Source of the DNA: Promethearchaeia archaeon
GTDB lineage: Archaea; Asgardarchaeota; Lokiarchaeia; Sigyniarchaeales; SOKP01
Assembly (NCBI GenBank): GCA_029856155.1
Contig: JAHQWL010000070.1
Coordinates: 61,368 to 125,367, forward strand
DNA: 64,000 nucleotides
Reading direction: 5' to 3'
Shown: positions 56,449 through 64,000 of the stretch, one piece after another
How the letters are laid out: every line of letters starts with the position of its first letter
Position numbering within the stretch: the stretch's first letter is position 1
The notes under the pieces: model-generated
The model's database searches: none
Seen by the model: the letters and a program-made list of their open reading frames with translations, nothing else
Told to the model about the DNA's origin: nothing
Translations under genes and position numbers: made by a program

Positions 56449-57735
56449 ATGAGAATTCGTGCAATAACCTTAGGTCAAATCGTCCCTTTCTTATATAAGA
56501 ATGAATCAATATTGTCATTTTTACAAGATAGACTTGTTAACTTTTCCTCTTTTGCTAATGAACTTAAGAGTATGCTAAAAGAAATTGATATAGAAGTTGA
56601 AACAAAACGCTTCTGCTCACAACCACTCTTTAGTTATGATAATAAATTATTTTATGAAAAAAACTTAAAAGAGACGTTAATAGACATCAATAACCAAGTA
56701 GGATTCTTGCAAGATCTATTTAATGATTACGGATTTGATTATTTTGCTTGCTGTATGATGATAGCAGACCAAATTGAGGAATTAGGAATTTTTGAGAAGC
56801 TTTTATTGAATGAAGTTCCTCAATTTATTAAAAATCATAGAAAATTTTTTACATCTTTACCAGCGGCATCCACTCAAAAAGGAATTAATATCGCTGCTTT
56901 AAAGTCGGGTGCCAAAATTATAAAAGAATTATCTGAACCTGATCCTTTTAACAACTTACAATTTTGTGTCTCTGCTAATGTTGGCCCTAATGTTCCTTTT
57001 TTTCCTGCTGCTTACCATTTTTCAGAAAAACCCGCATTTTCCTTAGCTTTAGAAATGGCAGATGAAGTAATAAACGTTTTTGAAGAATCAAGCACATTAA
57101 AAGAAGCTCAACTTAACTTATTAGCAAGATTTAACGAAATATACGATAATTTGACAAAAATTGCTGAAAAAGTGAGTAGAAACTATAATATTGAATTTAA
57201 AGGAATCGATTTCTCTCCTGCTCCTTATCCTATGATTGATAAGAGCATTGGAACTGCTATAGAAAAATTAGGGATTGAGTATTTTGGAGCTAATGGAACG
57301 TTAACTGGAGTGGCTTTAATTAAGAATTCTATACCCATTGATAAAGAAAAAGTAATAGGTTTTTCTGGGTTCATGCAACCAGTTTTAGAAGATTTCATTA
57401 TATCAAAAAGATTATCTGAAAACAAATTTAATTTAGATTCGCTCTTACTATATTCTACTATGTGTGGAGCGGGTCTTGATGTGGTCCCACTCCCAGGAGA
57501 TATAACAGAACGCGAATTATTTTACATTTTACTCGATATTTGTACGATATCTGTGACATTAAATAAACCTTTAACTTGTAGACTTATGCCAATTCCGGGT
57601 AAAAGTTCTGGTGATGATGTTGAGTTTGATTTTGAATATTTTGCCCCTTCAAAAATAATTGATTTCAGAAGATTAGTTAGTGAGAATAAAAATGATTTAT
57701 TCAATCGAAATGAGAAAAATTTAAAATTTCTTTAA
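56449..57735 (+). CDS. DUF711 family protein
   Basis: MRIRAIT, PFFPAAYH, GIDFSPAP, GFSGFMQPVLED, CGAGLDVVPLPGD, KPLTCRLMP. Confidence 0.88.
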   Translation: MRIRAITLGQIVPFLYKNESILSFLQDRLVNFSSFANELKSMLKEIDIEVETKRFCSQPLFSYDNKLFYEKNLKETLIDINNQVGFLQDLFNDYGFDYFACCMMIADQIEELGIFEKLLLNEVPQFIKNHRKFFTSLPAASTQKGINIAALKSGAKIIKELSEPDPFNNLQFCVSANVGPNVPFFPAAYHFSEKPAFSLALEMADEVINVFEESSTLKEAQLNLLARFNEIYDNLTKIAEKVSRNYNIEFKGIDFSPAPYPMIDKSIGTAIEKLGIEYFGANGTLTGVALIKNSIPIDKEKVIGFSGFMQPVLEDFIISKRLSENKFNLDSLLLYSTMCGAGLDVVPLPGDITERELFYILLDICTISVTLNKPLTCRLMPIPGKSSGDDVEFDFEYFAPSKIIDFRRLVSENKNDLFNRNEKNLKFL

Positions 57736-61273: not shown

Positions 61274-62410
61274 TTAATCATCCTTACTTGGAATTTTCGG
61301 TAATTGTCTTCGACCACTTGGGTTTTCCTCTCGGGACTTCTCTAAAATTTCAACTATTTCCCCCTTCTTTGCATTTGTAGGTAAATCAATTTCTTTTTCT
61401 TCGGCATAAGCTTTAAGATCTTTTACAGTCATAGAATTAAAATCGATTATCTCTTTAGCATTTATAGCTTTCTTCATTGTGTCAGGTTTAGTTGGCATTG
61501 GAGACAATCCCGAAGGAGATGTCTTTTTTGGAGTGCTATTTGATTTTTCTTCCTTTTCTAATACTTCAATAGCTTCAACAATTCCTTTTTTTTCGTCAAA
61601 ATAAACTCTTAACACGTGATTATCTAATTCTATCATTTCTTTTGGGACATTTTTAACTGGTTCCCAGTCAGTTTCTTCAACATCTTTTCCGAATACTTTA
61701 GCAATTTTTGAAACCGCAGCATAGAGTGTATGACCCAAAATGAGATTTGTTCTTTTATAACCGTCAGATACATCAGTTTTGAGAATTTTATTTTTTATGG
61801 TTTGTGCTTCTTCTCTAGATAATCCTATTGAATTAGAAATTCTTGATGGTTTTACCATTTCTGATTTTGGATATTGCGTCCTTGGTTTTGGTTTTGAAGC
61901 ACTTGGAGCGAAAGATGAAACTATTACCTCATTACTCGTATCTTGTAGTGCGGGTGAGAAATATTCCTCTTCTATCGGCACCTTAGTTGCTTTAGGAGCA
62001 ACATCCGTAATAGTTGCTTGTTCCATTCTCTCCCGTTCAACATTTCGGACATATCGCATATCGGCTAATCGTTCAGTTACTTCCATCGATTCTAATTTGA
62101 ATGTATTTAAGAATTCTGAAGGTTCATCTCCTGCATCTACAGAAACAATTTTACAGCGGTGATATCTAGAGTCTTTCATTAACTCTTCTTGAAGAGTTGA
62201 AGCTACTCTTGAACTAATAAATCTTTTTCGAACAGGTGATTTTGGACCTTTCCAAATGAAGATCCTTCGTAAATCTTCTCTAATTATAACTAGAACTTGT
62301 TCTGGATGCATATTTTCCTGAAGATGCTCTTCAGTTATGTCTAATTTTATTCGTTCTCCAGAATCGTCCAATTCATATACCATAAAATTCTCATATTCAG
62401 TCATTTTCAT
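61274..62410 (-). CDS. Gelsolin-like domain protein with C-terminal HeH/Rho-N-like domain
   Basis: RIFIWKGPKSPVRKRF...VDAGDEPSEF (gelsolin repeat); MTVKDLKAYAEEKEIDLPTNAKKGEIVEIL (HeH/SAP-like). Confidence 0.8.
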   Translation of the reverse strand: MKMTEYENFMVYELDDSGERIKLDITEEHLQENMHPEQVLVIIREDLRRIFIWKGPKSPVRKRFISSRVASTLQEELMKDSRYHRCKIVSVDAGDEPSEFLNTFKLESMEVTERLADMRYVRNVERERMEQATITDVAPKATKVPIEEEYFSPALQDTSNEVIVSSFAPSASKPKPRTQYPKSEMVKPSRISNSIGLSREEAQTIKNKILKTDVSDGYKRTNLILGHTLYAAVSKIAKVFGKDVEETDWEPVKNVPKEMIELDNHVLRVYFDEKKGIVEAIEVLEKEEKSNSTPKKTSPSGLSPMPTKPDTMKKAINAKEIIDFNSMTVKDLKAYAEEKEIDLPTNAKKGEIVEILEKSREENPSGRRQLPKIPSKDD

Positions 62411-62610
62411 TCAACAGGAATAATAATCTGTGGTATTTCAATTTTTATGATAGTAATTAAAAATTTTGTATTATAATTTGAAATTTCTTTTCAAACTTAA
62501 TTGTTTTAAAAAAAATATAAATTAAATTATTTTAAATCTTCTTTTTTAAAAAAACTGAGAGAACCTTTTTTAATTGTATATTAAAAATGAAAAAAAAAAC
62601 AAAGATTTTA

Positions 62611-63342
62611 TTACCTGTCATGAAGTACATTATCTATTGAAAGTACAAATCCTACAAGGATTCTTCGGTCAGTCACATTATCTAGTATTCTTAAAGCATA
62701 CGTATCTTTAAAGTCTAGTAATCCGCCAAGGAATATATCTCTCCACCTATCTGCTTTTTCGATCTCTGCAATAACATTTCCAGTTGTAACATCATACACC
62801 TTAAAACTAAAGCCCATAAATTTACCTTGGGCTCTAAACCATTGATTTCCCTGAGGATCTTCAAGATAGAAAACAGGTCTGAAAAGCGATAATATCTTCT
62901 TCTTAATTCGAGCTATTAAATTTCCTTGAGGGTCCTTTAAATCTTGTGCTCCACGAGCAGATACGATTTTAGCATGTATAGTAGCTGCGATTGAGCCATC
63001 AATTTCTTGTAATTCAACTCTACGTCTAATACTTAAGATTACTCTTTTCATTCTACCGATTATCTGGTTGTGTTCATCTAAAATCTCTCCAGAACCCCAA
63101 TCCCAATACTTTTAAGGGGTTTGAGTAATCCTCTACCTTTCCTTAAGGATATAATAATTCCGGTTGATATCAAACAATCCTCCTGGTTGACTTGATGAAG
63201 GTATACCAGAAGTAGCTGGCCTTACTGGTGTAGCGGGGGTGCTCACTTGCCTGACACTAGCTGGTATTGGCGACCCGCACTTTTCACAGAAGTTTTGTGA
63301 TAAATCTTTTATCTCTGCTCCACAATTATTGCAATACGGCAT
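62611..63342 (-). CDS. Zinc-ribbon plus LURP-one/scramblase-like (Tubby C-type) protein interrupted by a putative 27-nt intron (exons 63139-63342 and 62611-63111)
   Basis: The two track ORFs share a frame; spliced junction YYILKE|KYWDWGSGEILDEHNQIIGRMKR; LURP-type IARIKKK, KDTYAL, VLSID. Confidence 0.8.
63112..63138 (-). other. Putative bulge-helix-bulge intron in an mRNA (27 nt)
   Basis: AAGG/CCUU 4-bp helix flanked by two AAA bulges; removal at the canonical sites deletes both in-frame stops. Confidence 0.72.
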
Positions 63343-63498
63343 TTTTCTCACTTTCACTTTTAAATTTATTTTAAGCTATGAATAATAATATTGTTTAATA
63401 AAGTTACGGGTAAATTAGATATTCAATGTATATTCATGAAAATGTTTTAATTAGATAAGGGTTAATTATTATTAATAAGAAATAATTAGAGAAGCAAT

Positions 63499-64000
63499 AT
63501 GTCAAGCCAAAGCATTCCAAAGTTATTAAAATTGAAGGATTATATTACAATTGTAGGTACTTCTTTAGGAATAATTGCTTTAGTATGTGCTTGTATTGGT
63601 CACCCTGATTTACTTTCTTTAGGTTTTTTTTTGGTAACTATCTCGCTTGGTACTGATATGATAGACGGTTATATCGCTCGAAAAACAAATACTGTAAATG
63701 AAATGGGTAAAGAATTAGATTCATTGAGTGATTCTCTAACCTTTGGAATCGCCCCCGCGGTTTTAGCTTACCAATCATTCAAAACAAATACCCTTTTTGA
63801 TATCATTATTATAACAGGAGCAATATGTTTTGCTATTGGAGCAATGCTAAGATTGGCACGTTTTAACATCACAGAAAGTCCCGGGTATACGGGAGTACCT
63901 ACACCCATAAGTGCTTTGTTGATAGTTACCTTCTTTTATGCAAATTACTTTTACTCTATCGCTATGGGTGATTTTTGGAGAATTTCTTCATATATAATAC
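63499..64000 (+). CDS. CDP-alcohol phosphatidyltransferase, archaetidylserine/phosphatidylserine synthase-like; 3'-truncated by the window edge
   Basis: Own translation: DMIDGYIARK..GKELDSLSDSLTFGIAPA, LRLARFN, GVPTP. Confidence 0.88.
   Translation, partial: MSSQSIPKLLKLKDYITIVGTSLGIIALVCACIGHPDLLSLGFFLVTISLGTDMIDGYIARKTNTVNEMGKELDSLSDSLTFGIAPAVLAYQSFKTNTLFDIIIITGAICFAIGAMLRLARFNITESPGYTGVPTPISALLIVTFFYANYFYSIAMGDFWRISSYII

What the first reader, a model, noticed from the sequence alone, without database searches (positions are those of the whole stretch)
63105..63150. Candidate bulge-helix-bulge (tRNA-endonuclease-type) intron inside an Asgard protein-coding gene
Seen: the minus strand reads AUC CUU AAG GAA | AGG UAG AGG AUU ACU CAA ACC CCU UAA | AAG UAU UGG. 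The zinc-ribbon ORF (63133-63357) and the LURP/scramblase-like ORF (62611-63051) are in the same frame, separated only by this 27-nt block with two stops. It folds as helix AAGG(63144-41)/CCUU(63117-14), with a 3-nt bulge AAA(63140-38) on the 5' strand and AAA(63113-11) on the 3' strand. An intron stem GGU/ACC plus a GAG-GAUUA-CUC hairpin closes it. Established: archaeal EndA cuts BHB motifs after the second base of each bulge and RtcB ligates the ends; mRNA examples are rare (crenarchaeal cbf5). Applying that rule removes exactly 63112-63138 and gives ...YYILKE-KYWDWGSGEILD..., a 234-aa protein from ATG 63342. Inference: this is spliced mRNA in an Asgard archaeon. It could act as a switch between a 69-aa zinc-ribbon peptide and the full protein, loosely like XBP1/HAC1 non-spliceosomal splicing. 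Caveat: the exon-exon stem is weak (U-A, U-G) and a competing 6-bp UUAAGG/CCUUAA pairing exists.
Basis: partly seen in the sequence, partly recalled or inferred. Interest (0 to 1): 0.93.

Follow-up and report, generated by a model that had tools for sequence, protein, structure and literature searches.

The report
tRNA-type mini-intron in Asgard gene
A 27-base insert with two stop codons splits an otherwise healthy zinc-ribbon/scramblase-like gene of an Asgard archaeon; it has the RNA shape that the tRNA-splicing enzymes cut, and 26 related gene copies carry similar inserts at this spot or 12 bases further on, so the messenger RNA is almost certainly spliced, which in print is known for only one archaeal protein gene (cbf5).

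Summary
No RNA data could be obtained.

- **The insert.** On the minus strand, 63112-63138 is an exact 9-codon insert (TAG and TAA) between YYILKE and KYWDWG. More than 100 Asgard orthologues read that stretch without a break.
- **Relatives.** 26 further alleles carry 27-33 nt inserts: 17 species of the same genus and 9 metagenome contigs. Some are 28 or 29 nt, so read-through cannot rescue them. They sit at this site (A, 10 alleles) or 12 nt downstream (B, 17 alleles).
- **Structure.** All 27 form a 4/4-paired central helix with two 3-nt bulges. Cutting after the second bulge base restores the full ORF in every case.
- **Covariation and selection.** About 98% of cells pair, and an exon Lys-codon third base covaries with the intron. 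dN/dS is 0.004-0.06.
- **Enzymes.** The genome encodes two EndA paralogues and RtcB.
- **Turnover.** Intron states are scattered on the gene tree, and the AU test rejects single clades. A same-species contig lacks the intron and differs only in a 104-nt patch beside the site, which suggests turnover by recombination.
- **Not supported.** Nothing supports the proposed "switch".

This scan has already reported such mRNA introns in other Asgard genomes and in other genes of this genome.

The parts
63139..63342 (-). Exon 1: ATG to GAA, 68 codons. It holds a CxxC...CxxC zinc ribbon, a Pro/Ser/Thr linker and the first strand NRNYYILKE of the LOR domain.
   Evidence: Translation. Pfam Zn_Ribbon_1 PF13240, E 1.2e-7. 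Aligned with orthologues.
63112..63138 (-). 27-nt BHB intron, phase 0, with in-frame TAG and TAA. By the BHB rule it runs from the third base of the 5' bulge to the second base of the 3' bulge.
   Evidence: Absent from all intact orthologues at exactly this place. BHB layout. Unique in the genome, with no other copy at up to 5 mismatches.
62611..63111 (-). Exon 2: KYWDWGSGEILD... to TAA, 166 codons plus the stop. This is the rest of the LOR / scramblase-like (Tubby-C-like) domain. The first 20 codons have no ATG, GTG or TTG start before M at 63051.
   Evidence: Translation. Pfam LOR PF04525, E 1.2e-9, profile positions 31-186 of 187. dN/dS 0.035 against sister species G079.
63141..63144 (-). 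Central helix H, 5' strand (exon 1): AAGG.
   Evidence: Pairs 4/4 with CCUU at 63114-63117. Across site-A alleles the third pair is GC in 3, AU in 3 and GU in 2, and is never unpaired.
63114..63117 (-). Central helix H, 3' strand (intron): CCUU.
63138..63140 (-). 5' bulge AAA. The predicted cut lies between 63139 and 63138.
   Evidence: The 3-nt bulge is invariant in the 8 site-A alleles of alignment A3.
63111..63113 (-). 3' bulge AAA. The predicted cut lies between 63112 and 63111.
   Evidence: The bulge is AAA or UAA across the site-A alleles.
63118..63137 (-). Inner helix h' with its loop: GGU/ACC (63137-35 / 63120-18) and GAG/CUC (63133-31 / 63125-23) around the loop GAUUA.
   Evidence: present in the local MFE and in the BHB-constrained fold.
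63109..63110 (-). Outer helix h, 3' strand (exon 2: A, G). It pairs with UU at 63145-63146 (exon 1). The helix is only 2 bp and weak.
   Evidence: these two pairs form in all 8 aligned alleles (UA, or UA/UG).

Best explanation
The 27 nt at 63112-63138 (minus strand) are a bulge-helix-bulge intron inside the coding sequence of a zinc-ribbon + LURP-one/scramblase-like gene of an Asgard (Promethearchaeota) archaeon.

**Proposed mechanism.**
1. In the pre-mRNA, exon bases AAGG pair with intron bases CCUU to form the 4-bp central helix.
2. A 3-nt bulge lies on each strand, and an intron hairpin closes the motif.
3. The splicing endonuclease EndA cuts after the second base of each bulge. Here it is probably a two-subunit enzyme with broad specificity.
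4. RtcB joins the exons as GAA|AAG.
5. The spliced mRNA encodes the 234-aa protein.

**Shown here.**
- The geometry of the motif and its conservation with covariation in 27 alleles at two sites 12 nt apart.
- Exact restoration of the frame, including for the 28- and 29-nt inserts.
- Strong purifying selection on both exons.
- The presence of EndA (two paralogues) and RtcB in the genome.

**Inferred, not shown.**
- The cleavage and ligation themselves.
- Which enzyme performs them.

**Evolution.** The intron is young or unstable. Presence and absence change many times within one genus and even within the species, probably through recombination between alleles.
For: 1. **The insert is exact.** More than 100 orthologues of 223-248 aa, many named Promethearchaeota, Hodarchaeota or Thorarchaeota by NCBI, read YYILKE-KYWDWG without a break.
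2. **It recurs.**
   - 17 of 51 other genomes of the genus carry inserts of 28-30 nt in this gene.
   - 9 of 80 metagenome loci do too, with inserts of 30-33 nt.
   - Ten alleles use this site (A) and 17 use a site 12 nt downstream (B). None has both.
3. **All fit the BHB rule.** All 27 have 4/4 central-helix pairs and 3-nt bulges. The BHB cut restores KEKYWDWGSG and an open frame of 165-186 codons to the stop. In one metagenome allele (L088) the frame stayed open through the stretch examined and the stop was not reached.
4. **Covariation.**
   - Site B: 98.1% of 210 cells pair, 6 pairs change on both sides, and 0 of 500 shuffles reach this. Slid controls reach at most 67%.
   - Site A: 98.6% pair. 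The exon Lys-codon third base covaries with the intron (GC 3, AU 3, GU 2).
5. **Selection.** dN/dS is 0.004-0.06, including between pairs that both carry an intron.
6. **Single copy.** The gene has no intact second copy in the genome.
7. **Enzymes.**
   - There are two EndA-family genes, each with PF01974 and PF02778.
   - One is closest to the crenarchaeal chains 3p1z_B and 2cv8_A, the other to 1a79_A.
   - One RtcB gene is present.
8. **Chance.** A canonical BHB at a frame-restoring boundary arises in 0.5% of shuffled introns.
9. **tRNA genes.** ARAGORN finds only 23 tRNA genes in this 97%-complete genome, about half of them with introns. This agrees with a preprint on heavily interrupted Asgard tRNA genes (10.64898/2026.10.13.758758).
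Against: - The spliced junction and the circular intron have not been seen.
- **Weak fold.** The window's BHB is not the minimum-energy fold, and the region is no more stable than shuffles (z = 0.29). A competing 6-bp UUAAGG/CCUUAA pairing would absorb the 3' bulge. In the three site-A alleles with a UAA bulge, that extension cannot form (by eye).
- **Short outer helix.** It is only 2 bp at site A and 1 bp at site B.
- **Ambiguous cut.** The cut position is ambiguous over four positions.
- **No genome-wide enrichment.** My genome-wide scan for BHBs that join ORFs found no excess of sense over antisense hits (3329 against 2776). A BHB-like motif next to an ORF break is therefore weak evidence on its own. 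The case rests on the comparison between alleles.
Confidence: 0.87

Rival explanations
1. Recent pseudogene: a hairpin-forming 27-nt insertion killed the gene, and the BHB-like fold is incidental.
For: Two in-frame stops. The insert is absent from the sister species and from a same-species contig. BHB-like motifs are common by chance in this AT-rich genome.
Against: Inserts at the same two sites occur in 26 other alleles, with no other lesion in any of them. dN/dS is 0.03-0.04 between pairs that both carry an insert, at dS of about 1. The helices covary. The genome has no second copy.
Confidence: 0.03
2. Translational bypassing (ribosome hopping, as in T4 gene 60 or the mitochondrial byp elements): the ribosome takes off before the insert and lands after it.
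For: The inserts are short (27-33 nt), contain a hairpin and usually have a stop soon after the junction. In a few site-A alleles, such as G083 (L036), AAA...AAA could serve as matched take-off and landing codons.
Against: In the window, take-off would be GAA and landing UAA. At site B, GAU would have to land on AAA or GAA in 9 of the 10 genome alleles checked by eye. Bypassing does not explain the conserved 4-bp exon-intron helix, the covariation or the fixed 3-nt bulges. To my knowledge it is not described in archaea.
Confidence: 0.03
3. RNA-level excision by a nuclease other than EndA, or a regulated or partial splice. In the regulated form, the main product of the unspliced mRNA is the 69-aa zinc-ribbon peptide.
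For: Cleavage was not tested. Unspliced mRNA would end at TAG, two codons into the insert. At site B every allele has a stop as the second codon of the intron.
Against: The geometry is the one EndA recognises, and the genome has the enzymes. The early stops at site B follow from the conserved stem sequence UUUA(A/G)A and need no selection. The patchy, polymorphic distribution argues against a conserved regulatory role.
Confidence: 0.06
4. Assembly or strain-mixing artefact in this metagenome-assembled genome.
For: The genome is a 104-contig MAG with 5.7% contamination. An otherwise 99.6%-identical contig lacks the insert.
Against: Structurally equivalent inserts sit at the same codon boundary in 9 other independent assemblies, and at the neighbouring site in 17. 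An artefact would not produce covarying helices.
Confidence: 0.01

Closest known systems
BHB intron in the cbf5 (pseudouridine synthase) pre-mRNA of Crenarchaeota (Watanabe 2002; Yokobori 2009, PMC2738675)
   Same: - A short intron inside a protein-coding sequence.
- An unconventional (relaxed) BHB, with predicted cuts between the second and third bulge residues.
- A host with a hetero-oligomeric EndA.
- Gains and losses among related species.
   Different: - The gene is different (Zn-ribbon + LOR) and so is the phylum (Asgard).
- There are two alternative positions 12 nt apart in one gene.
- Turnover is much faster, with polymorphism within a species.
- For cbf5, cDNA and in vitro cleavage data exist. 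Here there are none.
Archaeal tRNA and rRNA BHB introns, in particular the heavily interrupted tRNA genes of Asgard archaea (preprint 10.64898/2026.10.13.758758)
   Same: - The same motif (4-bp helix, two 3-nt bulges), the same presumed enzymes and similar sizes.
- Repeated gains at BHB-compatible boundaries.
- Two EndA paralogues in most Asgard genomes.
   Different: - The substrate is an mRNA, so the exon half of the motif must also encode conserved amino acids (K-E, W-D).
- Splicing must restore a reading frame.
- The preprint deals with tRNA genes only.
BHB intron in the 5' UTR of Haloferax volcanii HVO_1309 (PMC7714728)
   Same: An mRNA processed by the splicing endonuclease at a BHB.
   Different: It lies in the untranslated leader and does not interrupt a reading frame. 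It was shown by circRNA-seq and in vitro assay.
IRE1/RtcB unconventional splicing of XBP1/HAC1 mRNA
   Same: Works loosely like it: non-spliceosomal removal of a short piece of coding sequence and ligation by an RtcB-type ligase (from general knowledge).
   Different: XBP1/HAC1 is cut by IRE1 at twin stem-loops, not at a BHB, and is stress-regulated. There is no sign of regulation here, and IRE1 was not looked for.

Membership tests
Archaeal bulge-helix-bulge (EndA/RtcB-spliced) intron | 4-bp central helix flanked by two 3-nt bulges on opposite strands | tested here: met
   Window: AAGG/CCUU with AAA and AAA bulges. All 27 alleles have 4/4 pairs and 3-nt bulges.
Archaeal bulge-helix-bulge (EndA/RtcB-spliced) intron | At least one flanking helix (exon-exon h, or intron h') | tested here: met
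   Window: h' of 3 bp, plus a further 3 bp beyond a small internal loop, and h of 2 bp. Site B: h' is mostly 8-10 bp (three alleles are interrupted sooner by a mismatch, contiguous run 1-6) and h is 1 bp. This is the HBh'-like relaxed class.
Archaeal bulge-helix-bulge (EndA/RtcB-spliced) intron | Cuts after the second nucleotide of each bulge give the functional product | tested here: met
   The cuts restore YYILKE-KYWDWG and the full ORF in all 27 alleles, including the 28- and 29-nt inserts. In the window the cut is one of four equivalent positions.
Archaeal bulge-helix-bulge (EndA/RtcB-spliced) intron | Structure kept by compensatory change among homologous introns | tested here: met
   98-99% of cells pair. 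Six pairs (site B) and three pairs (site A) change on both sides. 0 of 500 shuffles reach the covariation score.
Archaeal bulge-helix-bulge (EndA/RtcB-spliced) intron | Host encodes the splicing endonuclease (a type that accepts relaxed motifs) and the RtcB ligase | tested here: met
   Two EndA-family genes and one RtcB gene. That they form an (alpha-beta)2 enzyme is inferred. [quoted passage not shown]
Archaeal bulge-helix-bulge (EndA/RtcB-spliced) intron | Spliced RNA and excised (circular) intron observed, or cleavage by EndA in vitro | not testable with these tools
cbf5-type crenarchaeal mRNA intron | Located in cbf5 at the codon of the catalytic aspartate, in Desulfurococcales or Sulfolobales | tested here: not met
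   The host gene is Zn_Ribbon_1 + LOR, and its relatives are Asgard. It works like the cbf5 intron but is not a member of that intron lineage.
Programmed translational bypass element | Matching take-off and landing codons flanking the coding gap | tested here: not met
   Window: GAA against UAA. Site B: GAU against AAA or GAA in 9 of the 10 genome alleles (read by eye).

The most novel reading that the evidence does not exclude
BHB micro-introns in Asgard protein-coding genes may be an actively turning-over population rather than rare relics.

- In this one gene they occupy two sites 12 nt apart, AAGGAA|A and UGGGAU|N.
- They appear and disappear many times within a genus.
- They are polymorphic within a species, with a flanking-exon conversion tract like the co-conversion seen in intron homing.

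That would imply a mechanism of intron gain and spread acting on mRNAs in the closest prokaryotic relatives of eukaryotes. Candidates are reverse splicing followed by a cDNA step, or allele exchange.
Probability: 0.35. Interest if true: 0.9.

Novelty: new variant of a known kind. Interest (0 to 1): 0.78.

Why it matters
- **State of the literature.** The papers I could search report endonuclease-type splicing inside an archaeal coding sequence for one gene only, cbf5 of Crenarchaeota. PMC7714728 says so explicitly. I found no paper on Asgard mRNAs.
- **What this case adds.**
  - Asgard archaea, the closest known relatives of eukaryotes, seem to interrupt ordinary protein genes with tRNA-type mini-introns and depend on EndA/RtcB to read them.
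  - This gene gives an unusually clean comparative case: 27 alleles at two neighbouring positions, with frame-breaking lengths, covariation between a codon's third base and the intron, and presence/absence within a species.
- **Annotation.** Gene callers split such genes into a 74-aa and a 146-aa ORF. Asgard proteomes are therefore systematically mis-annotated wherever these introns occur.
- **A testable question.** How do introns enter and leave protein genes without a spliceosome?
- **Limit on novelty.** This scan has already reported the same phenomenon in other Asgard genomes and in other genes of this genome. This finding is therefore a well-documented further case plus new data on turnover, not a first sighting.

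Tried and rejected
2. **Other copies of the intron.**
   - There is none in the genome at up to 5 mismatches.
   - There is no exact match in metagenome contigs.
   - So there is no sign of a dispersed repeat or of recent transposition.
3. **Genome-wide scan of G000.**
   - The scan looked for BHB motifs whose removal joins two open frames of at least 60 codons. It gave 3329 sense against 2776 antisense-control hits, with no enrichment at any stem length.
   - Chance AT-rich hairpins at gene junctions swamp the signal, so I give no genome-wide count.
   - The scan did recover this intron and two clear further cases.
4. **Thermodynamic stability as evidence.** Rejected: z = 0.29.
5. **Rfam.** No family matches anywhere in the window. 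ARAGORN finds no tRNA gene in the window.
6. **Selection for early stops in the introns.** The site-B stops follow from stem composition, so no claim is made.
7. **One dN/dS pair.** WIN against L036 gave dN 0.39. This is an artefact of an unaligned 1-codon length difference and is ignored.
8. **Divergence peaks next to the intron site in sister-species pairs.** Not attempted, because the hypervariable linker lies there in any case.

Full report
**1. What is in the sequence**

On the minus strand an ORF starts at ATG 63342 and encodes a CxxC...CxxC zinc ribbon, a Pro/Ser/Thr-rich linker and ...NRNYYILKE. It then reads AGG TAG AGG ATT ACT CAA ACC CCT TAA. In the same frame it continues KYWDWGSGEILD... 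to TAA at 62611-62613.
- Pfam finds Zn_Ribbon_1 (PF13240) in the first part.
- Pfam finds LOR / LURP-one-related (PF04525) in the second part, with a weaker Scramblase match. The LOR match starts only at profile position 31 of 187, so the domain's first strands lie upstream of the break.
- The genome is a 4.1-Mb, 104-contig assembly with 30% G+C. The gene's close relatives are labelled Promethearchaeota, Hodarchaeota, Thorarchaeota or Lokiarchaeota by their submitters.

**2. The insert is exact**

A search with the read-through translation found 440 relatives. The best are 91-92% identical and 234 aa long, which is exactly the length predicted after removing 27 nt.
- In an alignment of 16 of them, every sequence reads YYILKE-KYWDWG without a break. 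The window alone has nine extra codons there.
- The gene is single-copy in the genome. The only other hit is a 30%-identical paralogue.
- Because of the AAA microhomology, four placements of the 27-nt deletion give the same product. The BHB rule picks one of them.

**3. The decisive comparison**

I searched 135 genomes of the family with an intact orthologue. The gene is present in 122 of them. In the window's own genus, 17 of 51 other genomes have stops inside the match.
- Reading the junctions shows short inserts at two places:
  - Site A, as in the window (YYILKE|KYWDWG).
  - Site B, 12 nt downstream (KYWD|WGSG).
- A scan of metagenome contigs added 9 more insert-bearing alleles among 80 loci.
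- In total there are 10 site-A alleles: 27 nt in the window, then 28, 29, 29 and six of 30 nt.
- There are 17 site-B alleles: sixteen of 30 nt and one of 33 nt.
- No allele has both inserts.
- Inserts of 28 and 29 nt put the two halves of the gene in different frames. Stop-codon read-through therefore cannot rescue them, and only removal of the insert can.

**4. Geometry**

Every one of the 27 alleles fits the same layout:
- four exon bases pair 4/4 with the four intron bases that precede the 3' bulge;
- a 3-nt bulge follows on each strand;
- an intron hairpin begins directly after the 5' bulge.

At site A the central helix is AAGG/CCUU, AAAG/CUUU or AAGG/CUUU, and the bulges are AAA and (A/U)AA. 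At site B it is UGGG paired with CCCA, CCCG, CUCG, CUCA or CCUG, and the bulges are A(U/C)N and A(A/U/G)U.

Cutting after the second base of each bulge restores KEKYWDWGSG. It gives an open frame of 165-186 codons to the stop, with no other lesion in any allele. In one metagenome allele (L088) the frame stayed open through the stretch examined and the stop was not reached.

**5. Covariation**

*Site B, 16 sequences (the 10-genome subset agrees):*
- 98.1% of 210 cells form standard pairs. Shuffles give 88%, with 0 of 500 as high. Structures slid by one column reach at most 67%.
- Six of the nine hairpin pairs change on both sides, for example UA/AU and CG/GC.
- The central helix pairs in 100% of cells.

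*Site A:*
- 98.6% of cells pair.
- The third pair of the central helix is G-C in 3 alleles, A-U in 3 and G-U in 2, and is never A-C.
- The synonymous third base of the exon Lys codon (AAG or AAA) therefore covaries with the intron.

*Competing helix:* the three site-A alleles whose 3' bulge is UAA cannot form the competing 6-bp extension seen in the window. The conserved feature is thus the 4-bp helix with its bulge, not the longer helix (by eye).

*Chance:* for the window alone, shuffling the intron letters gives a canonical BHB at a frame-restoring boundary in 0.5% of trials.

**6. The gene is alive**

- Nei-Gojobori dN/dS over the 171 codons from LFD... onwards is 0.035 for the window against its intronless sister (dS 0.36).
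- It is 0.004-0.06 for five other intron/no-intron sister pairs.
- It is 0.026-0.043 for pairs in which both genes carry an intron at the same site, at dS of about 0.8-1.0.
- The 20 codons between the insert and the first possible start codon (M at 63051) are as conserved as the rest. They must therefore be translated as part of the upstream frame.

**7. The machinery**

- The genome has two EndA-family genes of 198 and 202 aa. Each has the N-terminal and the catalytic-type C-terminal domain.
- One is closest to the Aeropyrum pernix and Sulfolobus tokodaii chains 3p1z_B, 3ajv_B and 2cv8_A. The other is closest to Methanocaldococcus 1a79_A.
- By eye, the second lacks the histidine that follows the DF.VY motif in the first. 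That would fit a catalytic plus a structural subunit, but this is an inference.
- One RtcB gene is present.
- A 2026 preprint finds two EndA paralogues in 44 of 60 Asgard genomes, together with heavily interrupted tRNA genes.
- ARAGORN finds only 23 tRNA genes here, about half of them with introns.

**8. Rival explanations**

- **Pseudogene.** Excluded by sections 3 to 6.
- **Translational bypass.** It would need matching take-off and landing codons. These exist in a few site-A alleles (AAA...AAA). They do not exist in the window (GAA against UAA) or in 9 of the 10 site-B genome alleles. Bypass also does not explain the covarying exon-intron helix.
- **Assembly artefact.** It cannot produce 27 structurally equivalent, covarying inserts in independent assemblies.

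**9. Turnover**

On a maximum-likelihood tree of the spliced coding sequences (43 loci), states A, B and 'none' are interspersed. The tree needs 16 changes, no fewer than with shuffled labels.
- Several well-supported sister pairs differ in state. The window's sister, G079, is intronless (SH-aLRT 99).
- AU tests reject a single clade for A (p 7e-50), for B (p 7e-5) and for A+B (p 7e-11).
- This is the gene's own tree, so allele exchange between species could account for part of the scatter.

A JGI contig (L050, 1561 nt) is the same species as the window.
- Outside one patch there are 6 mismatches in about 1457 nt.
- It lacks the intron.
- 23 of the 29 differences fall in a 104-nt patch that ends 4 nt upstream of the intron site.
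- The window's version of the patch is 91% identical to the sister species. L050's version matches no sampled genome better than 83%.
- The simplest reading is that the intron was lost in that strain by recombination with a foreign intronless allele. An assembly chimera cannot be excluded.

**10. The 'switch' idea**

Nothing supports a regulatory role.
- The intron is missing from the nearest relatives and is polymorphic.
- The early in-frame stops at site B follow from the conserved stem sequence.

**11. What is known**

- The papers I could search document BHB splicing inside an archaeal coding sequence only for cbf5 of Crenarchaeota (PMC2738675).
- They also document one 5' UTR intron in Haloferax (PMC7714728). 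That paper states that cbf5 was the only other case.
- Four literature searches found nothing on Asgard mRNAs.

This scan's own notes report the same phenomenon in many other Asgard genomes. One report includes environmental RNA support, which I did not check. The notes also report it in other genes of this genome and in this gene family in other genomes.

My own scan recovered two of the same-genome cases, in AMP phosphorylase and in a gene on contig C44. I partly confirmed the interruption of the single uL11 gene.

**12. Verdict**

This is a genuine BHB-type intron in an Asgard mRNA, with a confidence of about 0.87. It is a new variant of a known kind. It is not the first of its kind in this scan, but it comes with unusually strong comparative support and with new evidence for rapid turnover linked to recombination.

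Noticed in passing
L050 (JGI contig Ga0111033_1168327) against window 62366-63953: A same-species contig is 99.6% identical outside one patch and lacks the intron. 23 of its 29 differences lie in a 104-nt patch that ends 4 nt 5' of the intron site. The patch looks imported, since it matches no sampled genome better than 83%, whereas the window's version is 91% identical to the sister species. This could be intron loss by gene conversion or an assembly chimera.
   Followed up: partly
Site B, 12 nt downstream of the window's intron site (equivalent to window 63099/63100), in L005, L016, L020, L024, L032-L035, L038, L039, L056, L057, L070, L085, L088, L090, L098: There is a second intron position in the same gene (KYWD|WGSG). 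Its central helix pairs UGGG with CCCA or a variant, and its hairpin is typically 8-10 bp. No allele carries both introns.
   Followed up: yes
G000 contig C98, plus strand, around 57019-57060: A 30-nt insert with a 9-bp stem and the central helix UAGC/GUUA. Removing it by the BHB rule restores ...DKHS|TGGVPGNK..., the AMP/thymidine-phosphorylase-type motif. A first-reader note on this genome also lists it.
   Followed up: partly
G000 contig C44, plus strand, around 81445-81490: A 30-nt insert with the central helix ACGU/GCGU, an 11-bp exon-exon stem and a 9-bp intron stem. It joins open frames of 166 and 302 codons and is a full hBHBh' motif.
   Followed up: no
L049 (G000 C44:134549-137677), about 1357-1510: The only uL11 gene is interrupted near its start. 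The Pfam N-domain match begins at profile position 17, and the earlier pieces (MSEKGKIVVKALVTGG, ASGGPPI) lie upstream. A 36-nt BHB (GCCU/AGGU, 5-bp outer helix) restores GGPPI|GPSVGPTG. I did not resolve the first insert with my scanner.
   Followed up: partly
L044 (G006, another genus of the family), about 380-395: The orthologue has an in-frame TAA in the linker just after the zinc ribbon (...DLINIEIQ*KVDSIEE...), inside an imperfect hairpin. The YYILKE-KYWDWG junction is intact. This may be a third interruption site or a true split.
   Followed up: no
window 61274-62410 (-) and 63499-63999 (+): The gene's neighbours are a 378-aa protein with a C-terminal HeH/LEM-like motif, downstream on the same strand, and a divergently transcribed CDP-alcohol phosphatidyltransferase (PssA-like). 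Notes on other genomes describe the same trio with a gelsolin-type N-terminus. Pfam did not call gelsolin here at E <= 0.01.
   Followed up: partly
G000, whole genome: ARAGORN finds only 23 tRNA genes in a 97%-complete genome, 12 of them with introns. Many tRNA genes are probably too interrupted to be detected.
   Followed up: no
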